Below are positions 42,347 to 48,040 of a DNA stretch of 64,000 nt, one piece after another. The translations under genes and the position numbers were made by a program. Source of the stretch: Cyclobacteriaceae bacterium (GTDB lineage: Bacteria; Bacteroidota; Bacteroidia; Cytophagales; Cyclobacteriaceae); the NCBI GenBank assembly GCA_965278925.1, contig OZ257123.1, forward strand, positions 2,880,753-2,944,752. The letters are read 5' to 3'. The notes below the pieces were generated by a model. The model was not told the origin of the DNA. It made no database searches and was given only the letters and a program-made list of their open reading frames with translations. Every line of letters starts with the position of its first letter. Position 1 is the first letter of the stretch.

Positions 42347-43516
42347 TTGAGTTCTGATCGTTACAATCAACGTGGTGTTTCTGCCAGCAAAGAAGATGTG
42401 CACCTGGCTATTAAAAATCTGGAAAAGGGATTGTTTCCTCAGGCATTCTGCAAAATTGTACCCGACTGGCTGGCTGGCGATCCTGAGTTTTGCACCGTGA
42501 TGCATGCTGATGGAGCTGGCACAAAATCCTCTCTTGCCTACCTGTACTGGAAAGAAACCGGAGACCTGTCGGTATGGAAAGGCATTGCGCAAGATGCCAT
42601 CATCATGAACATTGATGATTTATTATGCGTGGGTGCAACAGGGCCAATCTTACTCTCCTCCACGATAGGCAGAAACAAAAATCTTATTCCTGGCGAAGTA
42701 ATTTCAACAATTATCAACGGCACCGAAGAAGTGCTGGCTATGTTGCGCCTGCATGGCATGGAAATCTATAGTACCGGTGGCGAGACGGCCGATGTGGGCG
42801 ACCTCGTGCGCACCATTATCGTGGATAGCACCGTTACTGCGCGTATGAAACGTAGCGATGTAATCGATAATAAGAATATTCAGGCGGGCGATGTGATTGT
42901 GGGTTTGGCCTCTTACGGAAAAGCTACTTACGAAAGTGAATACAATGGTGGCATGGGCAGCAACGGACTTACCTCAGCCCGGCACGATGTGTTTGCCCAT
43001 GAGTATTCAGCAAAATATCCGGAGACTTTTGATAAGGCCGTACCTGATAATCTGGTTTACTCGGGAAAATATAAAGTGACGGATGAAGTTCCGGATGTAC
43101 CTCTAAATATCGGAAAGCTGGTGTTATCACCTACACGCACCTATGCGCCAGTTATCTTAAAAGTATTGGAAGAACTTCGTGCGCACATTCATGGCATTGT
43201 ACATTGCAGCGGAGGAGCCCAAACCAAGGTGCTGCACTTTATTGAAAACCTGCACGTAGTTAAGGACAATCTGTTTGATGTGCCCCCGCTTTTTAAGTTG
43301 ATACACGAATGCTCGGGCACCGACTGGAAAGAGATGTACAAAGTGTTTAACATGGGGCACCGTATGGAGATTTATTTGCCGGAAAAGTTTGCCGAACAAG
43401 TAATCGACATTTCACAATCGTTCGGAATTGAGGCGCAGGTGGTTGGCAGGGTTGAGGCTAGTTCTGCAAAAAAAGTTACACTCAAAACCCATCACGATGA
43501 GTTTGTTTATCCGTAG
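42347..43516 (+). CDS. purM: Phosphoribosylformylglycinamidine cyclo-ligase (AIR synthase, Bacteroidota type)
   Basis: RYNQRGVSASKEDVH, HADGAGTKS, GGETADVGD, GMGSNGLTSARHD, HCSGGAQTK, VFNMGHRMEIY. Confidence 0.88.
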   Translation: MSSDRYNQRGVSASKEDVHLAIKNLEKGLFPQAFCKIVPDWLAGDPEFCTVMHADGAGTKSSLAYLYWKETGDLSVWKGIAQDAIIMNIDDLLCVGATGPILLSSTIGRNKNLIPGEVISTIINGTEEVLAMLRLHGMEIYSTGGETADVGDLVRTIIVDSTVTARMKRSDVIDNKNIQAGDVIVGLASYGKATYESEYNGGMGSNGLTSARHDVFAHEYSAKYPETFDKAVPDNLVYSGKYKVTDEVPDVPLNIGKLVLSPTRTYAPVILKVLEELRAHIHGIVHCSGGAQTKVLHFIENLHVVKDNLFDVPPLFKLIHECSGTDWKEMYKVFNMGHRMEIYLPEKFAEQVIDISQSFGIEAQVVGRVEASSAKKVTLKTHHDEFVYP

Positions 43517-43621: not shown

Positions 43622-43915
43622 ATGAAATCAGATACCAATAAGTTCGGTCCCTTTTTCGATCTTCCTCTGATTGTTGGCAATGCCCTCCCGGTAACAATTG
43701 AACCTAACGGAAAACTGACGCTAGATACAGATTTGTGCGAAGGAGCGAATTATTGGATAATACTTTATACTGAAGGTAAAGAAGAGTTTTTACGGATTTT
43801 AGCTACAGAGCCACAGATTGTGGAATATACCAGTATAAGTGGGATTGATTTGCTGGTTACCCATTGGAAGGAAGTGGAAGGGCAAATTGTTCAGTGTGAC
43901 TTAACGATTGATTAA
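43622..43915 (+). CDS. Hypothetical protein, 97 aa, no signal peptide
   Basis: ORF track; first gene of a tightly packed four-gene unit. Confidence 0.65.
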   Translation: MKSDTNKFGPFFDLPLIVGNALPVTIEPNGKLTLDTDLCEGANYWIILYTEGKEEFLRILATEPQIVEYTSISGIDLLVTHWKEVEGQIVQCDLTID

Positions 43916-43921
43916 ATAAGT

Positions 43922-43996
43922 ATGGCAATAAGGACACGGGTAACGACTACTTCAGCTGGAGGAACTGCAACCACTACTACTGTAAATTCCGCATAA
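43922..43996 (+). CDS. 24-aa Thr-rich peptide MAIRTRVTTTSAGGTATTTTVNSA (not in ORF track)
   Basis: ATG 43922 to TAA 43996. It matches the C-terminus of 43998-44411 at 13/21 residues without gaps, and 8 of those 13 use different synonymous codons. A at -3 of the start. Confidence 0.7.
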   Translation: MAIRTRVTTTSAGGTATTTTVNSA

Positions 43997-43997
43997 A

Positions 43998-44411
43998 ATG
44001 AAACAGCTGGTTTTAATTTTCATTTTTATACTCAATGCCCTTTTTGCACATAGTCAAGGTGAATTTCAACATGAGGTTTCAAAAAGAAAATTAGTTCTTC
44101 ATGATTTTACCGGCACAAATCTCAATTTTGAAATTGACTTGGGCGAGAGCAAGCACACATCAGTATCTATTTATATAACATATAACGATGGCTCCGAGCA
44201 GGAAACCATTTTTATTAAAGATGATCTGGCTCTTCAAAAAGCAACATCTAACATTAAATCAATTGTCATCCGGCATAAGAAACGGTTTGGTCTAAGATTC
44301 AACCAAAAACTAAACGATAATGAAAAAGCTAAACGGAAGATCAATCGGGTAAGGGTTTCTTCAGAAACAGCCGGAGGTAGCTCAACAACTACCACAATAA
44401 ATTCCGCATGA
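43998..44411 (+). CDS. Secreted hypothetical protein, 137 aa, with RVRVSSETAGGSSTTTTINSA tail
   Basis: Signal peptide MKQLVLIFIFILNALFAHS; ATGA overlap with the downstream CHAT gene. Confidence 0.75.
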   Translation: MKQLVLIFIFILNALFAHSQGEFQHEVSKRKLVLHDFTGTNLNFEIDLGESKHTSVSIYITYNDGSEQETIFIKDDLALQKATSNIKSIVIRHKKRFGLRFNQKLNDNEKAKRKINRVRVSSETAGGSSTTTTINSA

Positions 44412-47400
44412 TCTCAAGGCTTAAATACGCGAGTTTTTCACTGCTGTTTATTAGCAGTTTAGGACAAGCACAAATTGAGCAATTAGAAAGAAACTTCGAA
44501 ACAGAAAATACAGCGGCCGCTGCGTTTTATCTCAAATCCTTAACAAATCCAATCGAGCACGCACTGTTTGAGGCTGAGCTTTTCTTTCTTGAAGGAAATT
44601 ATAAAAAATCCCGAGAAATACTGCTCCTCCATAAAAATCAGTTTACTTCAAATCGTGAAAAAGGTAAGTTTCACCTTTTGATGGCCATGCTGGATCATAA
44701 GCAGCAGAATTATCCAGAATCAATTAAAGGATTTGAACTGGCCGAGAAACTTTTTGAAATCTGCAAACCAAAAGATAATCTTCTCGCGCAACTAAATTAT
44801 TGGCGCGGGTATGCGCTTCTTGAACAAAAGAAGTTAGAACTATCAGAACAAAACCTACTTAGCGCTTTGAAATTTTATCAACAAGATTCACTTCGCTTTT
44901 TTACAAAAAATGCAAAATTATATTTCTGGTTAGGGACTGTCAAGAACGAAGAACAAGACTTCGATTCTTCAATTTACTTCCTTAAAAGGGCTCTCCGTAC
45001 TTTTGAAAACACTCCACTTGACAAGACCAGGGAGATTGTAAAAATTCATAACAATTTAGGTAATTCTTATGCAGCTATATGGAGCTATAACGAGGCCGTA
45101 AATAATTATCAGAAGGCAATTCAATTAAATAAGGATAAAATCGGAGACCCTATAGAGTTAGCGAATGCATGTTCAAACCTAGGATTATTCTATAATACCT
45201 TCGAAAATCACTTGCAATCTGAGTACTGGTTTAATCAAGCATTTCTATGGATGCAAAAAAGTAACATCGACCCCATAAGGAGAACAATGATACTTCAGAA
45301 CTATGGCGCTTGCTTAGCTAATCGGTATGAGTTTCAAGAAGCGCTTTCAACCTACTTTCAAGCGCTACAAATCGTTACTCAGTATAAAGAAGACCGTGGC
45401 GATATCTATACTCAACTCCTACTCAATATTGCTACAGCCTACAGTAACCTTGACTTGGCATCCAAAGCCGAACCGTATAAGGCTATGGCCAATGAATTTT
45501 TTATTAAGAATAAGGGAAAGTGGCCTAACGAGTATAATGCCTGGCGGCTGTGGGAGGCAATTAGTTTGCGGCAAAATGGAAATTTGGAGACCTCATTGAA
45601 AATCTTACAAGAACTTGAAATTTATTATTCGAAAATTAATACTGATAAATTTTTTGAAGTTGAAAAGCAAAAGGCGATTTGTTTTAATAATCTCAAGCAA
45701 TACGCAGAAAGTAGAAAATACTATGATCAATTGTTGATTCATTTCAAGAAGTTATTTCCAGACTCCCACCCTCAAATAATTTATCTTCTAAATGATCTTG
45801 GTTCATTGTTCGTAAAAGAAAAACAATATGATTCAGCTGGCTATTATTTTCGGTTGGCTAAACAAAATAATCAATTAGCTTCTACGGAAATTAAATCTAA
45901 TCAACTATACGCCTCAAAAATCGAATGGATCGTATCTAACTACTATTTACACATGATTGACCAAAAGAAGTTCACTACCGGTCAGTTATCAGTTGAAGAA
46001 TTACAACAATCTGAAGGCTTGATCTACTCCACTTTATCTGTAATAGAATCCAAACGCATTGAGTTTCGGAACGACCAGGACATCACCAACCTGTATCGTA
46101 TGACGCGCGATTTTTTTGACGAAGCCATGAAGTATTATTTTACACTCTACAACCATACGGGAGACAAACAATACATCGACAAAGCCTTTTTTATTTCCGA
46201 AAAATCAAAATACCAAACTCTGCAAAATGCTATAAAGTTAGATCGGGTCAATGCCTTTGCCGGAGTGACTTCAAAAATAATGGCCGAAGAGCAAAAGCTG
46301 GTAAAGCAAGTGGCGCAATTGGAGTATCAGTACTCACAAGAATTGGCGAAGCAGGAGGAACCTTTGCCCGAACTTGTGCAAGAGTATATCACACAATGGC
46401 GCACCAATTCAAATCGCCACAACGAACTTGTGGATTCTATTAAAAACAACTTGCCGGATTATTATAACCTCAAGTTTAATCGGTCAACTACCGAAATACA
46501 TCAGATACAAAACAGCTTTCTTTCCAACAACCAGGATATGGCCTGGGTCTCTTATTATGTGGGCGAATCTGAAAGCTATGCGATTGCTATCACCCACAAC
46601 GACAAATATTTTATTAAACTTGATGGTGCTGAAAAAATTACGCGACAATTAAAATCATTCAATAATTATGTAAGTCATCAAATGAATAGGGAATTGCAGC
46701 AAGCTTCTTTTGAACTTTACAAAGGGTTGTTTCAAGCTGTGGATAGCTGCTTTCGATTACATTCAAAAAAAATAAAAAAGGTTGTTATTATACCCGATGG
46801 GCCATTGAATTATCTCAACTTCGAACTACTTGGTAAACCCGTTAATAAATCGTGGCATTACGCACTTTACGATTATCAGTTTTCGTATGGATATTCTTCT
46901 ACTTTGTTATGGACAGAGTTTTCAGATCAGCAGAAATGGAATGTGAACACAACCAGTATGGTTGGTTTCGCACCTGAGTTTGTGCGCGGCTCGGGTCCGC
47001 TGATGAACGAATCCACCCGCGAAGGTTCAGAAAAACCCGGATACGATTCATTTGATTTCAGTCCGCTCCAAAAAAACCAGGATGAAGTTGTTCAGGTGGC
47101 TGAGATTCTAAAGCAGAAAAAAATCAAGACGGCTGTTTTTTTAGGGCCACAAGCCGATGAGGCTTCATTCAAAAAAGCTAATCTTGGGTCGTATAATATT
47201 ATACACCTTGCCACACATGGTTTTGTTTCAAACCAATCACAAAATGTGGCGGGTATCGCCTTTGCAAAAAATCAAAACTCATCCGATGATGGCATTCTTT
47301 ACATGGACGAGATTTTCTCATTAAAAAACAAAGCTAATCTTGTTTGCTTGTCGGCATGCGAAACAGGAAGCGGAATATTTCAAGAAGGAGAAGGACTTGT

Positions 47401-47629
47401 TGGACTAACCCGGGCGTTTATTTATTCGGGAGCACAAAATCTTGTGGTGTCTTTATGGAAAGTACAAGATGAAAGCACCGCGCAATTAATGACTCATTTT
47501 TACTCTGCCTTAGTAAAAAATCATTCTGTTTCGCAATCCCTGCATGATGCTAAAATTGCGATGATTAAAAAAAATCCAACTCTACCACCTTATCATTGGT
47601 CGGCTTTTGTTCATGTTGGCTTAAACTAG
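44408..47629 (+). CDS. Exported TPR-CHAT domain protease (caspase/separase-like clan CD)
   Basis: Signal peptide; multiple TPRs (IHNNLGNSY..A...YQKAI); CHAT motifs IIPDGPLNYLNFELL, IIHLATHG (His), LSACETG (Cys), EGLVGLTRAFIYSGA, VVSLWKVQD, PYHWSAF. Confidence 0.92.
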   Translation: MISRLKYASFSLLFISSLGQAQIEQLERNFETENTAAAAFYLKSLTNPIEHALFEAELFFLEGNYKKSREILLLHKNQFTSNREKGKFHLLMAMLDHKQQNYPESIKGFELAEKLFEICKPKDNLLAQLNYWRGYALLEQKKLELSEQNLLSALKFYQQDSLRFFTKNAKLYFWLGTVKNEEQDFDSSIYFLKRALRTFENTPLDKTREIVKIHNNLGNSYAAIWSYNEAVNNYQKAIQLNKDKIGDPIELANACSNLGLFYNTFENHLQSEYWFNQAFLWMQKSNIDPIRRTMILQNYGACLANRYEFQEALSTYFQALQIVTQYKEDRGDIYTQLLLNIATAYSNLDLASKAEPYKAMANEFFIKNKGKWPNEYNAWRLWEAISLRQNGNLETSLKILQELEIYYSKINTDKFFEVEKQKAICFNNLKQYAESRKYYDQLLIHFKKLFPDSHPQIIYLLNDLGSLFVKEKQYDSAGYYFRLAKQNNQLASTEIKSNQLYASKIEWIVSNYYLHMIDQKKFTTGQLSVEELQQSEGLIYSTLSVIESKRIEFRNDQDITNLYRMTRDFFDEAMKYYFTLYNHTGDKQYIDKAFFISEKSKYQTLQNAIKLDRVNAFAGVTSKIMAEEQKLVKQVAQLEYQYSQELAKQEEPLPELVQEYITQWRTNSNRHNELVDSIKNNLPDYYNLKFNRSTTEIHQIQNSFLSNNQDMAWVSYYVGESESYAIAITHNDKYFIKLDGAEKITRQLKSFNNYVSHQMNRELQQASFELYKGLFQAVDSCFRLHSKKIKKVVIIPDGPLNYLNFELLGKPVNKSWHYALYDYQFSYGYSSTLLWTEFSDQQKWNVNTTSMVGFAPEFVRGSGPLMNESTREGSEKPGYDSFDFSPLQKNQDEVVQVAEILKQKKIKTAVFLGPQADEASFKKANLGSYNIIHLATHGFVSNQSQNVAGIAFAKNQNSSDDGILYMDEIFSLKNKANLVCLSACETGSGIFQEGEGLVGLTRAFIYSGAQNLVVSLWKVQDESTAQLMTHFYSALVKNHSVSQSLHDAKIAMIKKNPTLPPYHWSAFVHVGLN

Positions 47630-47638
47630 TCTTATAAA

Positions 47639-48040
47639 TTACAACTTCACATCATCGGCAATATCACTAAGTTGAATTGAAAGTGCACGGGTTGAGATTT
47701 GTATTTCGCGCAACGACATCCCCAAAGAAATCAACAAAAAAATCAGTGCCGCCCCAAAAATATATTTTGCCACTTGTTCTTCGCCATAAAAAAGAGAAAA
47801 CATGCACAGCACACTAAGAAAAAGTGAGAAGATACTTAGCATTTGCATATTGCGGATAAGTATTACACGTAGTTTCAAATTGCGAATCTGATCAGCAAGT
47901 CTTTTGTCGGCTTTGGTGGTATAGTCATTGGCCAGTTTGCGGATGAGGGCGGCAATGGCAAGAAAGCGATTGGTATACGCCAACAGAATCAACGAAACAG
48001 TTGGAAACAGCAGAGCGGGTGTAGTAAGAGTGAGTTCCAT
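47639..48040 (-). CDS. DUF2721 family membrane protein
   Basis: LTTPALLFPTVSLILLAYTNRFLA..LIR, EIQISTRAL; TATCTTTG -7 box on the minus strand at 48061-48068. Confidence 0.8.
   Translation of the reverse strand: MELTLTTPALLFPTVSLILLAYTNRFLAIAALIRKLANDYTTKADKRLADQIRNLKLRVILIRNMQMLSIFSLFLSVLCMFSLFYGEEQVAKYIFGAALIFLLISLGMSLREIQISTRALSIQLSDIADDVKL

What the first reader, a model, noticed from the sequence alone, without database searches (positions are those of the whole stretch)
43922..47629. Unannotated 24-aa peptide repeats the C-terminal tail of a secreted protein, both coupled to a TPR-CHAT protease
Seen: peptide R-T-R-V-T-T-T-S-A-G-G-T-A-T-T-T-T-V-N-S-A-stop aligns without gaps to the end of 43998-44411, R-V-R-V-S-S-E-T-A-G-G-S-S-T-T-T-T-I-N-S-A-stop. 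There are 13/21 identities, most other changes are conservative, and 8 of the 13 identical residues use different codons, which points to selection on the amino-acid sequence. Both end at the same register, and the genes are coupled (1-nt gap, ATGA overlap) to a TPR-CHAT protease with intact His/Cys motifs. Known: TPR arrays often bind free C-terminal peptides, RRNPP regulators are controlled by adjacent small peptides, and CHAT proteases are activated through TPR-linked partners. Inference: a peptide-gated protease system in which the AGG-(S/T)n-(V/I)NSA-COOH motif is ligand, substrate or inhibitor, present in one secreted form and one signal-less form.
Basis: partly seen in the sequence, partly recalled or inferred. 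Interest (0 to 1): 0.88.

Follow-up and report, generated by a model that had tools for sequence, protein, structure and literature searches.

The report
Conserved micro-gene beside secreted CHAT protease
A 24-codon gene that gene-callers skip is real: it encodes the same threonine-rich hairpin that ends a neighbouring secreted protein, the two change together, and both always sit with an exported caspase-like (TPR-CHAT) protease in a four-gene cassette known only from a few uncultured Cytophagales, which gives this poorly understood protease class a candidate ligand or substrate.

Summary
The 24-codon ORF (43922-43996) is a real gene. All 13 related cassettes examined carry it with its own ATG, and its substitutions fall mainly at third codon positions.

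- A, 97 aa, no signal peptide
- the 24-aa peptide
- B, 137 aa, exported
- an exported TPR-CHAT protease with its His/Cys pair intact

The cassette was found in 8 of 177 genomes of one Cytophagales genus and in a few metagenome contigs. A close relative has an empty site at the same position.

The peptide and the B tail vary together within genomes at the protein level but not at silent sites. AlphaFold models both as beta-hairpins, and the peptide docks confidently on A.

My best reading is inferred, not shown. The hairpin is the recognition element of the protease. The protease cuts B at the invariant Arg in its basic linker. A plus peptide is a two-piece cytoplasmic counterpart of B.

Earlier notes of this scan describe other small peptides beside TPR-CHAT genes on other DNA. 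No expression data could be obtained.

The parts
43622..43915 (+). Gene A: 97-aa protein without a signal peptide, predicted seven-strand beta-sandwich; invariant G9-P10, W45, T80-H81-W82, E84, Q91-C92
   Evidence: ORF; 14 family members among 5.8 billion proteins and 11 clusters among 1.8 billion representatives; no Pfam, NCBIfam or PDB match; alignments; AF2 model
43922..43996 (+). 24-codon peptide gene with its own ATG, 6 nt after the stop of A; the product is a Thr-rich beta-hairpin
   Evidence: Present in 13 of 13 cassettes, and 10 of the 13 copies are exactly 24 codons. Its frame relative to A varies (in frame in 3 of the 10 where frame was determined). Differences at codon positions 1/2/3 are 0.39/0.15/0.63; pS 0.68, pN 0.26. 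AF2 strands 103-110 and 116-123 of the fusion, pLDDT 82-87
43998..44411 (+). Gene B: 137-aa exported protein, made of signal peptide, beta-sandwich body, basic linker and hairpin tail
   Evidence: ORF; only 7 family members among 5.8 billion proteins; alignment; AF2 pLDDT 71
43998..44054 (+). Signal peptide of B (residues 1-19; Gln at +1, the Bacteroidota Q-rule)
   Evidence: Read from the sequence and from the alignment, where all orthologues end in A/S-x-A/S/G-Q; modelled as a helix over residues 3-16; Q-rule from PMC5837995. No signal-peptide predictor was available
44307..44345 (+). Basic, length-variable linker of B (residues 104-116), predicted disordered
   Evidence: Lys/Arg-rich and variable in length in all orthologues; pLDDT below 50 at residues 110-113
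44346..44408 (+). Hairpin tail of B (residues 117-137), beginning with the invariant Arg117; G126, G127 and T130 are invariant
   Evidence: AF2 strands 117-123 and 129-136, pLDDT 58-71; 13/21 identical to the peptide
44408..47629 (+). Exported TPR-CHAT protease, 1073 aa; its start overlaps the stop of B (ATGA)
   Evidence: Pfam CHAT 1.9e-57 and TPR_12 2.2e-22; hydrophobic N-terminus followed by AQ
46712..47620 (+). CHAT (clan CD caspase-like) domain, residues 769-1071; catalytic His937 (codon 47216) and Cys984 (codon 47357)
   Evidence: the same motifs occur in the cassette orthologues L036, L069 and L070

Best explanation
SHOWN. Window 43622-47629 is one four-gene operon: A, the 24-aa peptide, B and TPR-CHAT. 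It is a lineage-specific cassette of a few uncultured Cytophagales. The 24-codon ORF is a real protein-coding gene. Its product and the last 21 residues of B are two copies of one module: a basic residue at the base (Arg in nearly all copies), a Thr-rich strand, a turn (GG in nearly all tails), then exactly 10 residues to the free C-terminus. The C-terminal halves of the two copies change together within genomes. B and the protease have signal peptides; A and the peptide do not. PREDICTED (AlphaFold). Both copies form beta-hairpins. The free peptide docks on the sandwich of A in a model made by reading A's stop codon as glycine. The B copy is tethered to the B sandwich by a disordered, Lys/Arg-rich linker. 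INFERRED MECHANISM. In the periplasm the TPR array of the protease recognises the hairpin, above all its C-terminal half. The CHAT domain then cuts at the invariant Arg at the base of the hairpin or in the basic linker, as Arg-specific clan CD proteases do. This detaches the hairpin from B and so matures or switches B. A plus peptide is the cytoplasmic two-piece counterpart of B, probably a split paralogue, in which the hairpin is already a separate chain. The two hairpins stay matched because they answer to a shared partner. The biological output of the system is unknown.
For: Cassette and micro-ORF conserved in 13 of 13 loci, with tight spacing: A-peptide 3-28 nt, peptide-B -1 to 15 nt, B-CHAT ATGA overlap in most. 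Coding-type substitution pattern. The peptide is the only match to the B tail in the genome. A degenerate pattern for the peptide hits only 4 stretches in 596 Gb of genomes, all of them cassette-bearing MAGs. Same-genome peptide/tail pairs are more alike than cross-genome pairs: 0 of 200,000 permutations reach the observed value for 13 loci, and 3 of 40,320 for 8 non-redundant loci. The excess is in pN (0.26 against 0.38), not in pS (0.65 against 0.70). In L029, B is highly divergent (35% to the window's B, while A is 79%), and the peptide has changed at exactly positions -3 and -1 to match the new tail. Five columns of the TPR N-terminal region follow the tail type in L029; none does in A, in B or in the control comparisons (Fisher p 0.019). 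The CHAT His/Cys pair is intact in all four orthologues checked. Invariant Arg, basic linker and low pLDDT in the linker. Hairpin predictions. Signal peptides on B and CHAT in all orthologues, consistent with the Q-rule (PMC5837995).
Against: The P1 preference of this CHAT is unknown. CHAT relatives cut after Arg (separase) but also after Met or Leu (craspases), as summarised in PMC11506125. AlphaFold places the free peptide on A, not on the TPR. That model rests on an artificial fusion, and only 3 sequences cover the peptide. Docking of the B tail is of low confidence (pLDDT 58-71; four of five models have a mean of 60-64). The TPR co-variation is post hoc, involves few columns, and could reflect recombination in L029. 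Ancient gene conversion followed by silent-site saturation cannot be excluded as the cause of the concerted pattern. The reading does not explain why a cytoplasmic copy (A plus peptide) is kept.
Confidence: 0.45

Rival explanations
1. Structural complement only. The hairpin is simply the last two strands of two small beta-sandwiches, supplied in trans for A and in cis for B. A plus peptide is a split paralogue of B. The protease acts on something else, and the peptide/tail resemblance reflects common descent plus old gene conversion or recombination rather than a shared partner.
For: AF2 docks the peptide on A at pLDDT 82-87, pTM 0.77. Global profile alignment of A-peptide against mature B is colinear over 118 columns (probability 77%, E 2.4e-6) and pairs the invariant His81 of A with the invariant His93 of B. 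Both models draw the same weak fold hits: LecB 1ous, p24 GOLD 5azy and 5azx, YPM 1pm4. L029 looks mosaic, so recombination does occur in the cassette.
Against: Body-only profile comparison is not significant (E 0.11 to 0.77), so most of the score comes from the hairpin itself. If each hairpin only fitted its own, very different body, there would be no reason for their C-terminal halves to change together. pS between same-genome copies is as high as between genomes. The tight, invariant linkage to TPR-CHAT (13 of 13) is left unexplained.
Confidence: 0.25
2. The free 24-mer is a diffusible ligand that binds the TPR array and switches the protease on or off, with the B tail as a competing tethered copy (RRNPP-like peptide gating).
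For: The peptide always accompanies the TPR-CHAT gene. It co-varies with the tail. Five TPR columns track the tail type. TPR domains commonly bind short peptides (general knowledge).
Against: The peptide has no signal peptide or leader, and the cassette has no exporter, whereas the protease is exported. No HTH or other output domain was found. AF2 gives the peptide a confident site on A.
Confidence: 0.12
3. Precursor-peptide system. GG marks a leader/core boundary, the CHAT protease is the maturation protease, and the product is a 10-residue Thr-rich peptide, or a 20-mer released after the Arg, made from two precursors (a minimal one and a carrier-protein one).
For: GG is invariant in the 12 aligned B tails and present in 12 of 13 overall (8 of 13 peptides), and it always lies exactly 10 residues from the C-terminus. 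Cleavage after the conserved Arg would give the same 20-mer from both precursors (read from the sequences).
Against: GG is missing in 5 of 13 peptides. There is no modifying enzyme, C39 peptidase or ABC exporter in the cassette. No RiPP or bacteriocin family matched. The 14-residue 'leader' of the peptide is very short.
Confidence: 0.08
4. Not a gene. The 24 codons are the stranded tail of A after a nonsense mutation, or are read by stop-codon read-through, or the stretch is a conserved non-coding element.
For: In this genome A and the peptide are in the same frame, separated by TAA and two codons. The same is true in L035 and L036.
Against: In 7 of the 10 loci where frame was determined, the peptide ORF is in a different frame from A, yet it keeps its ATG, its length and its stop. 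No fused A-peptide protein exists among the 14 family members, which are all 96-117 aa. The substitution pattern is that of a coding sequence. No Rfam family matched and there is no terminator-like signal above chance.
Confidence: 0.03

Closest known systems
[quoted passage not shown]
   Same: The TPR-CHAT module lies outside the cytoplasm and keeps the His-Cys pair. It is proposed to cut a flexible linker after sensing a signal through its TPR/CHAT region.
   Different: DdvA has an N-terminal zinc anti-sigma domain, a TM helix and an ECF sigma partner. Here the protein has only a cleavable signal peptide, no sigma factor is adjacent, and the partners are two small ORFan proteins and a micro-peptide.
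Craspase: Csx29 (TPR-CHAT) with its substrate Csx30 in type III-E CRISPR (PMC9729208, PMC10028731)
   Same: A TPR-CHAT protease is encoded next to its dedicated protein substrate, and cleavage in a linker separates two parts of the substrate.
   Different: Craspase is cytoplasmic, RNA-guided and Cas7-11-dependent. There are no cas genes here, and both protease and candidate substrate are exported.
Separase-securin (as summarised in PMC11506125)
   Same: A TPR-like superhelix plus a caspase-fold domain, cutting after Arg, and held by a pseudosubstrate polypeptide that lies along the protease.
   Different: Eukaryotic and cytoplasmic/nuclear, with no sequence relation to A, B or the peptide. A pseudosubstrate role for the hairpin is only an analogy.
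Bacterial gasdermins with adjacent caspase-like/CHAT proteases (10.1101/2021.06.07.447441)
   Same: A short C-terminal peptide of about 20 residues holds a protein in one state, and a neighbouring protease removes it.
   Different: B has no gasdermin match, is about half the size, and is exported. Gasdermin systems act in the cytoplasm, and there is no free-peptide gene in them.
Type V pili of Bacteroidota (FimA/Mfa1; PMC5954841, PMC13655056)
   Same: In the same phylum, an Arg-specific clan CD protease (gingipain) cuts an exported beta-sandwich subunit, after which C-terminal strands of another subunit fill the groove (strand exchange).
   Different: Pilins are lipoproteins of 300-500 aa with two domains. 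B has a type I signal peptide with no lipobox Cys and is 117 aa when mature. Polymerisation of B is pure conjecture.
RRNPP peptide-sensing regulators of Firmicutes
   Same: A TPR protein is encoded beside a small peptide gene.
   Different: In RRNPP systems the receptors are cytoplasmic with HTH or phosphatase outputs, and the peptides are exported pro-peptides that are re-imported. Here the topology is the reverse and there is no output domain.

Membership tests
CHAT (PF12770), clan CD caspase-like cysteine proteases | Domain match above the curated cut-off | tested here: met
   195.4 bits against a cut-off of 24, covering profile positions 6-288 of 289
CHAT (PF12770), clan CD caspase-like cysteine proteases | Catalytic His-Gly and Ala-Cys motifs present | tested here: met
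   H937 in HLATHG and C984 in SACETG; conserved in L036, L069 and L070
CHAT (PF12770), clan CD caspase-like cysteine proteases | Proteolytic activity and P1 specificity | not testable with these tools
   Needs an enzyme assay
RRNPP peptide-receptor systems | Cytoplasmic TPR receptor with an HTH or phosphatase output domain | tested here: not met
   The TPR protein has a signal peptide, and its only other domain is CHAT
RRNPP peptide-receptor systems | Peptide made as an exported pro-peptide | tested here: not met
   The 24-mer has no hydrophobic leader in any of 13 orthologues
Type III-E Craspase (Csx29/Csx30) | Linked Cas7-11/gRAMP and a CRISPR array | tested here: not met
   The neighbours are an AIR-synthase-like gene, DUF2721 and peptidase S9, in the window and in L036; PADLOC matched only a generic TPR model
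DdvA-type anti-sigma TPR-CHAT | N-terminal zinc anti-sigma domain, TM helix and an adjacent ECF sigma factor | tested here: not met
   The N-terminus is a 21-residue signal peptide followed directly by TPR, and no sigma gene is in the cassette
Bacterial gasdermin-protease pairs | Gasdermin fold/family in the protease's neighbour | tested here: not met
   No Pfam or NCBIfam match for B; the B model gives only generic beta-sandwich hits
Double-glycine leader peptides / RiPP precursors | GG cleavage motif at the end of a leader | tested here: inconclusive
   GG in 12 of 13 tails but only 8 of 13 peptides; the 'leader' of the peptide would be 14 residues
Double-glycine leader peptides / RiPP precursors | Linked C39-peptidase ABC exporter or modifying enzyme | tested here: not met
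   None in the cassette in any locus
Type V pilins | Lipoprotein signal (lipobox Cys) and a two-domain pilin fold | tested here: not met
   Type I signal peptide ending A-x-S/Q with no Cys; single sandwich of about 75 residues

The most novel reading that the evidence does not exclude
The cassette is a protease-controlled hairpin-exchange device. The exported CHAT protease cuts the linker of B so that its beta-hairpin becomes a free, swappable strand pair. This would allow donor-strand exchange between B molecules (polymer or surface assembly), or release of a 20-residue signal. The separately encoded cytoplasmic hairpin, bound to the split paralogue A, would act as the matched intracellular reference or regulator. 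This would be an undescribed principle in which one co-evolving hairpin is used both free and tethered on the two sides of the inner membrane.
Probability: 0.15. Interest if true: 0.85.

Novelty: new variant of a known kind. Interest (0 to 1): 0.6.

Why it matters
Exported TPR-CHAT proteases are common in Bacteroidota; this genome alone has seven, all with signal peptides. No substrate or ligand is known for any of them. This cassette offers an unusually clean entry point. It has a 137-aa candidate substrate whose recognition element is also encoded as a free 24-mer. It shows natural co-variation in three tail types, which predicts the specificity-determining residues. All four parts are small enough to express and assay. 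It is also a clear example of a functional micro-ORF that gene-callers miss. Earlier notes of this scan report other small peptides beside TPR-CHAT genes in other phyla, so the pairing may be general. The limits are a very narrow distribution, uncultured hosts, and an unknown physiological output.

Tried and rejected
1. Nonsense-mutated tail or read-through of A. I raised this when one search showed the same frame. I rejected it because 7 of the 10 loci where frame was determined have the peptide in another frame with its own ATG, and no fused form exists.
2. A and B as clear paralogues. Body-only hhalign is not significant, so I keep this only as a possibility.
3. Recent gene conversion between peptide and tail. 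Of 90 identical residues, 62 use different codons, and pS is the same within and between genomes.
4. The same peptide at the six other CHAT loci of the genome: none found.
5. The cassette outside the genus. There were no orthologues of the CHAT N-terminal region in 300 genomes of the order, and the peptide DNA pattern hits only cassette MAGs in 596 Gb.
6. Known families for A, B and the peptide: nothing significant in Pfam, NCBIfam, PADLOC or PDB sequence searches.
7. Fold searches gave only generic sandwiches, best E 2.6e-3 and all TM scores at or below 0.57.
8. Rfam found nothing, and the promoter/terminator scan found nothing above chance.
9. The search for related loci with alignment A1 failed because no stretch was conserved enough.
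11. P0017, a 2166-aa protein that matched the A profile 20 times, is a low-complexity repeat protein and was dropped.


Full report
WHAT IS THERE. Between an AIR-synthase-like gene (42347-43516) and a convergent DUF2721 gene (47639-48040) lie four tightly packed genes on the + strand:
- A, 43622-43915, 97 aa
- a 24-codon ORF, 43922-43996
- B, 43998-44411, 137 aa
- a TPR-CHAT protein, 44408-47629, 1073 aa

The spacings are 6 nt, 1 nt and an ATGA overlap. The last 21 residues of the peptide and of B match at 13 positions without gaps, and 8 of the 13 identical residues use different codons. The CHAT domain scores 195 bits and keeps His937 and Cys984.

IS IT MORE THAN CHANCE? Yes. I compared the 21 residues before every stop codon in all six frames of the 4.42-Mb genome (121,661 frames) with the B tail. 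The peptide is the only match (13/21), and the next best is 8/21. None of 200,000 composition-preserving shuffles reaches 13.

THE SMALL ORF IS A GENE.
- The A protein has relatives in 8 of 177 genomes of the same genus. The family has 14 members among 5.8 billion proteins, and the B family has 7.
- I examined 13 distinct cassettes: eight genomes (L028-L035) and metagenome contigs L036, L038, L073, L074 and L075. Every one has a 23-25-codon ORF with its own ATG between A and B, followed by B and a TPR-CHAT gene.
- Gene-callers did not call this ORF on those contigs.
- Its frame relative to A is the same in 3 of the 10 loci where frame was determined and different in 7. This is what chance predicts, so the same-frame arrangement in this window is not evidence of read-through or a broken gene.
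- No fused A-peptide protein exists in the family.
- Among the eight 24-codon copies, pairwise differences at codon positions 1, 2 and 3 are 0.39, 0.15 and 0.63. Mean pS is 0.68 and mean pN 0.26. This is a coding signature.
- No Rfam family matches the region.

WHERE IT OCCURS.
- Source names for relatives are 'Cyclobacteriaceae bacterium', 'Bacteroidetes bacterium OLB12' and 'CHB5', and 'uncultured Ohtaekwangia sp.'.
- A degenerate DNA pattern for the peptide's first 14 codons hit only four stretches in 596 Gb of species-representative genomes. All four are cassette-bearing MAGs.
- No orthologue of the protease's N-terminal 400 residues was found in 300 other genomes of the order.
- L036 has the same flanking genes as the window.
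- In a close relative, G012, the AIR-synthase-like gene (84% identical) and DUF2721 (83% identical) are convergent and only 59 nt apart. The 4-kb cassette is therefore a discrete presence/absence unit.

THE MODULE SHARED BY PEPTIDE AND TAIL. Counted from the C-terminus over 13 loci, both copies have:
- T at -8 (13/13 in each)
- V or I at -4 (13/13 in each)
- S at -2 (13/13 peptides; 9 S and 4 A in tails)
- T, A or S at -1

GG at -12/-11 is found in 12 of 13 tails and 8 of 13 peptides, always exactly 10 residues from the end. The hairpin base carries Arg: it is invariant in the 12 aligned B tails, and in the peptides it is Arg in all but one copy, which has Lys. The 'NSA' ending is specific to two genomes.

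CONCERTED CHANGE.
- The last 10 residues of peptide and tail are more alike within a genome (6.9 identities) than across genomes (5.0).
- No random pairing in 200,000 reaches the observed sum for 13 loci. For eight non-redundant loci, 3 of 40,320 permutations do. Related genomes are not independent, so I count roughly three or four independent co-changes.
- The excess similarity is at the protein level only. pN is 0.26 within genomes and 0.38 across, while pS is 0.65 and 0.70. Of 90 identical residues, 62 use different codons. Recent gene conversion is therefore excluded. An ancient conversion followed by saturation of silent sites is not.
- The most telling case is L029. Its A is 79% identical to the window's A, but its B is only 35% identical and is closest to L038's B. 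Its peptide keeps the window-like first half but has changed at -3 and -1 to match its own tail.

TOPOLOGY.
- B and the protease begin with a basic residue, a hydrophobic stretch and A/S-x-A/S followed by Gln in all orthologues. This is the Bacteroidota 'Q-rule' for signal peptidase I substrates (PMC5837995, PMC10653852).
- A and the peptide have no such N-terminus in any orthologue.
- This is read from the sequences. No signal-peptide predictor was available.
- All seven CHAT proteins of this genome have such N-termini, and none of the other six has this peptide cassette.

STRUCTURE PREDICTIONS.
- For A and the peptide I used a fusion made by reading A's TAA as Gly, with an alignment of 16 rows of which 3 cover the peptide. 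It gave mean pLDDT 81.6 and pTM 0.77. The model is a seven-strand sandwich plus the peptide as a hairpin (strands 103-110 and 116-123) at pLDDT 82-87.
- B gave mean pLDDT 71 (the other four models 60-64). The model has a sandwich body (pLDDT 74-88), a linker below 50, and a tail hairpin (117-123, 129-136) at 58-71.
- Foldseek against the PDB found nothing significant for either model. Both drew the same weak generic sandwich hits: LecB, p24 GOLD domain and YPM.
- A global profile alignment of A-peptide against mature B is colinear (probability 77%) and pairs the invariant His81 of A with the invariant His93 of B. However, the bodies alone are not significantly similar (E 0.11 to 0.77). 'A plus peptide is a split paralogue of B' is therefore plausible but unproven.

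WHICH PARTNER? I looked for alignment columns in which L029 departs from its two close relatives and instead matches the distant genomes that share its tail type, while its relatives match the third type. Five such columns exist in the first 320 residues of the protease (positions 60, 91, 156, 164 and 235). None exists in A or in B, and none appears when L028 or L030 is used as the odd one out. That is 5 of 78 against 0 of 92, Fisher p 0.019. The test is post hoc and could reflect recombination, so I treat it as a lead that the TPR array reads the hairpin's C-terminal half.

MECHANISM I COMMIT TO (confidence 0.45; inferred). In the periplasm the TPR array of the protease binds the hairpin of B. 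The CHAT domain then cuts at the invariant Arg at the hairpin base or in the Lys/Arg-rich disordered linker, and this detaches the hairpin and changes the state of B. A plus peptide is the cytoplasmic counterpart in which the hairpin is already a separate chain. The two hairpins stay matched because they answer to a common partner. Cleavage after the conserved Arg would yield the same 20-mer from both. This model does not explain what the cytoplasmic pair does or what the system is for.

RIVALS.
- A purely structural role for the hairpin, with the protease acting on something else (0.25).
It is weakened because the peptide lacks any export signal.
- A GG-leader precursor system (0.08).
- Not a gene (0.03).

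COMPARISON WITH KNOWN SYSTEMS.
- The only characterised extracytoplasmic TPR-CHAT is the anti-sigma factor DdvA (PMC11506125). The present protein lacks DdvA's anti-sigma domain, TM helix and sigma partner.
- Craspase (PMC9729208), separase-securin, bacterial gasdermin-protease pairs (10.1101/2021.06.07.447441) and type V pilus maturation by Arg-gingipain (PMC5954841, PMC13655056) are functional analogies. Each fails its membership tests here.
- Earlier notes of this scan describe other small peptides beside TPR-CHAT genes in Bacteroidota and Acidobacteria. I did not test those, and they are not independent evidence.

VERDICT. It is part of a previously undescribed, narrowly distributed four-gene cassette, and the mechanism remains open.

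Noticed in passing
L051:1-939 and L052:1-1158 (own genome G000:C1:1354524-1355462 and 3620723-3621880): Two other exported TPR-CHAT genes of this genome (starting at 1355468 and 3621886) are each preceded, 5 nt upstream, by an exported ORFan protein (313 and 386 aa) with no Pfam match. 'Exported partner protein directly upstream' may be a general layout for these proteases.
   Followed up: partly
window 43622-43915: Protein A has invariant His81, Trp82, Glu84, Gln91 and Cys92 on neighbouring predicted strands, next to where the peptide hairpin is modelled. A metal site or a catalytic Cys-His pair acting on the peptide is conceivable.
   Followed up: no
L029 (G145:C102:14084-17371): Mosaic cassette. 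A is 79% identical to the window's A, but B is only 35% identical (closest to L038's B at 45%) and the CHAT N-terminal region is 59% identical. This points to recombination or fast evolution of B within the cassette.
   Followed up: partly
L033 (G092:C2:645581-648886), reverse strand: Gene B is split over two frames. The body ends early and the tail continues in another frame. This is either a frameshifted pseudogene or an assembly error. The peptide of this locus is 23 aa and lacks GG.
   Followed up: no
L036:9135-9785: This metagenome cassette has an extra 216-aa ORF with no Pfam match between the CHAT gene and DUF2721. It is absent from the window.
   Followed up: no
L054 (G012:C1:744745-748143): Empty site. 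In this close relative, the AIR-synthase-like gene and DUF2721 are convergent and 59 nt apart, with no cassette.
   Followed up: yes
own genome, seven CHAT loci (L003-L009): All seven CHAT-domain proteins of the genome (798-1875 aa) start with signal-peptide-like N-termini. This organism appears to use CHAT proteases only outside the cytoplasm.
   Followed up: partly
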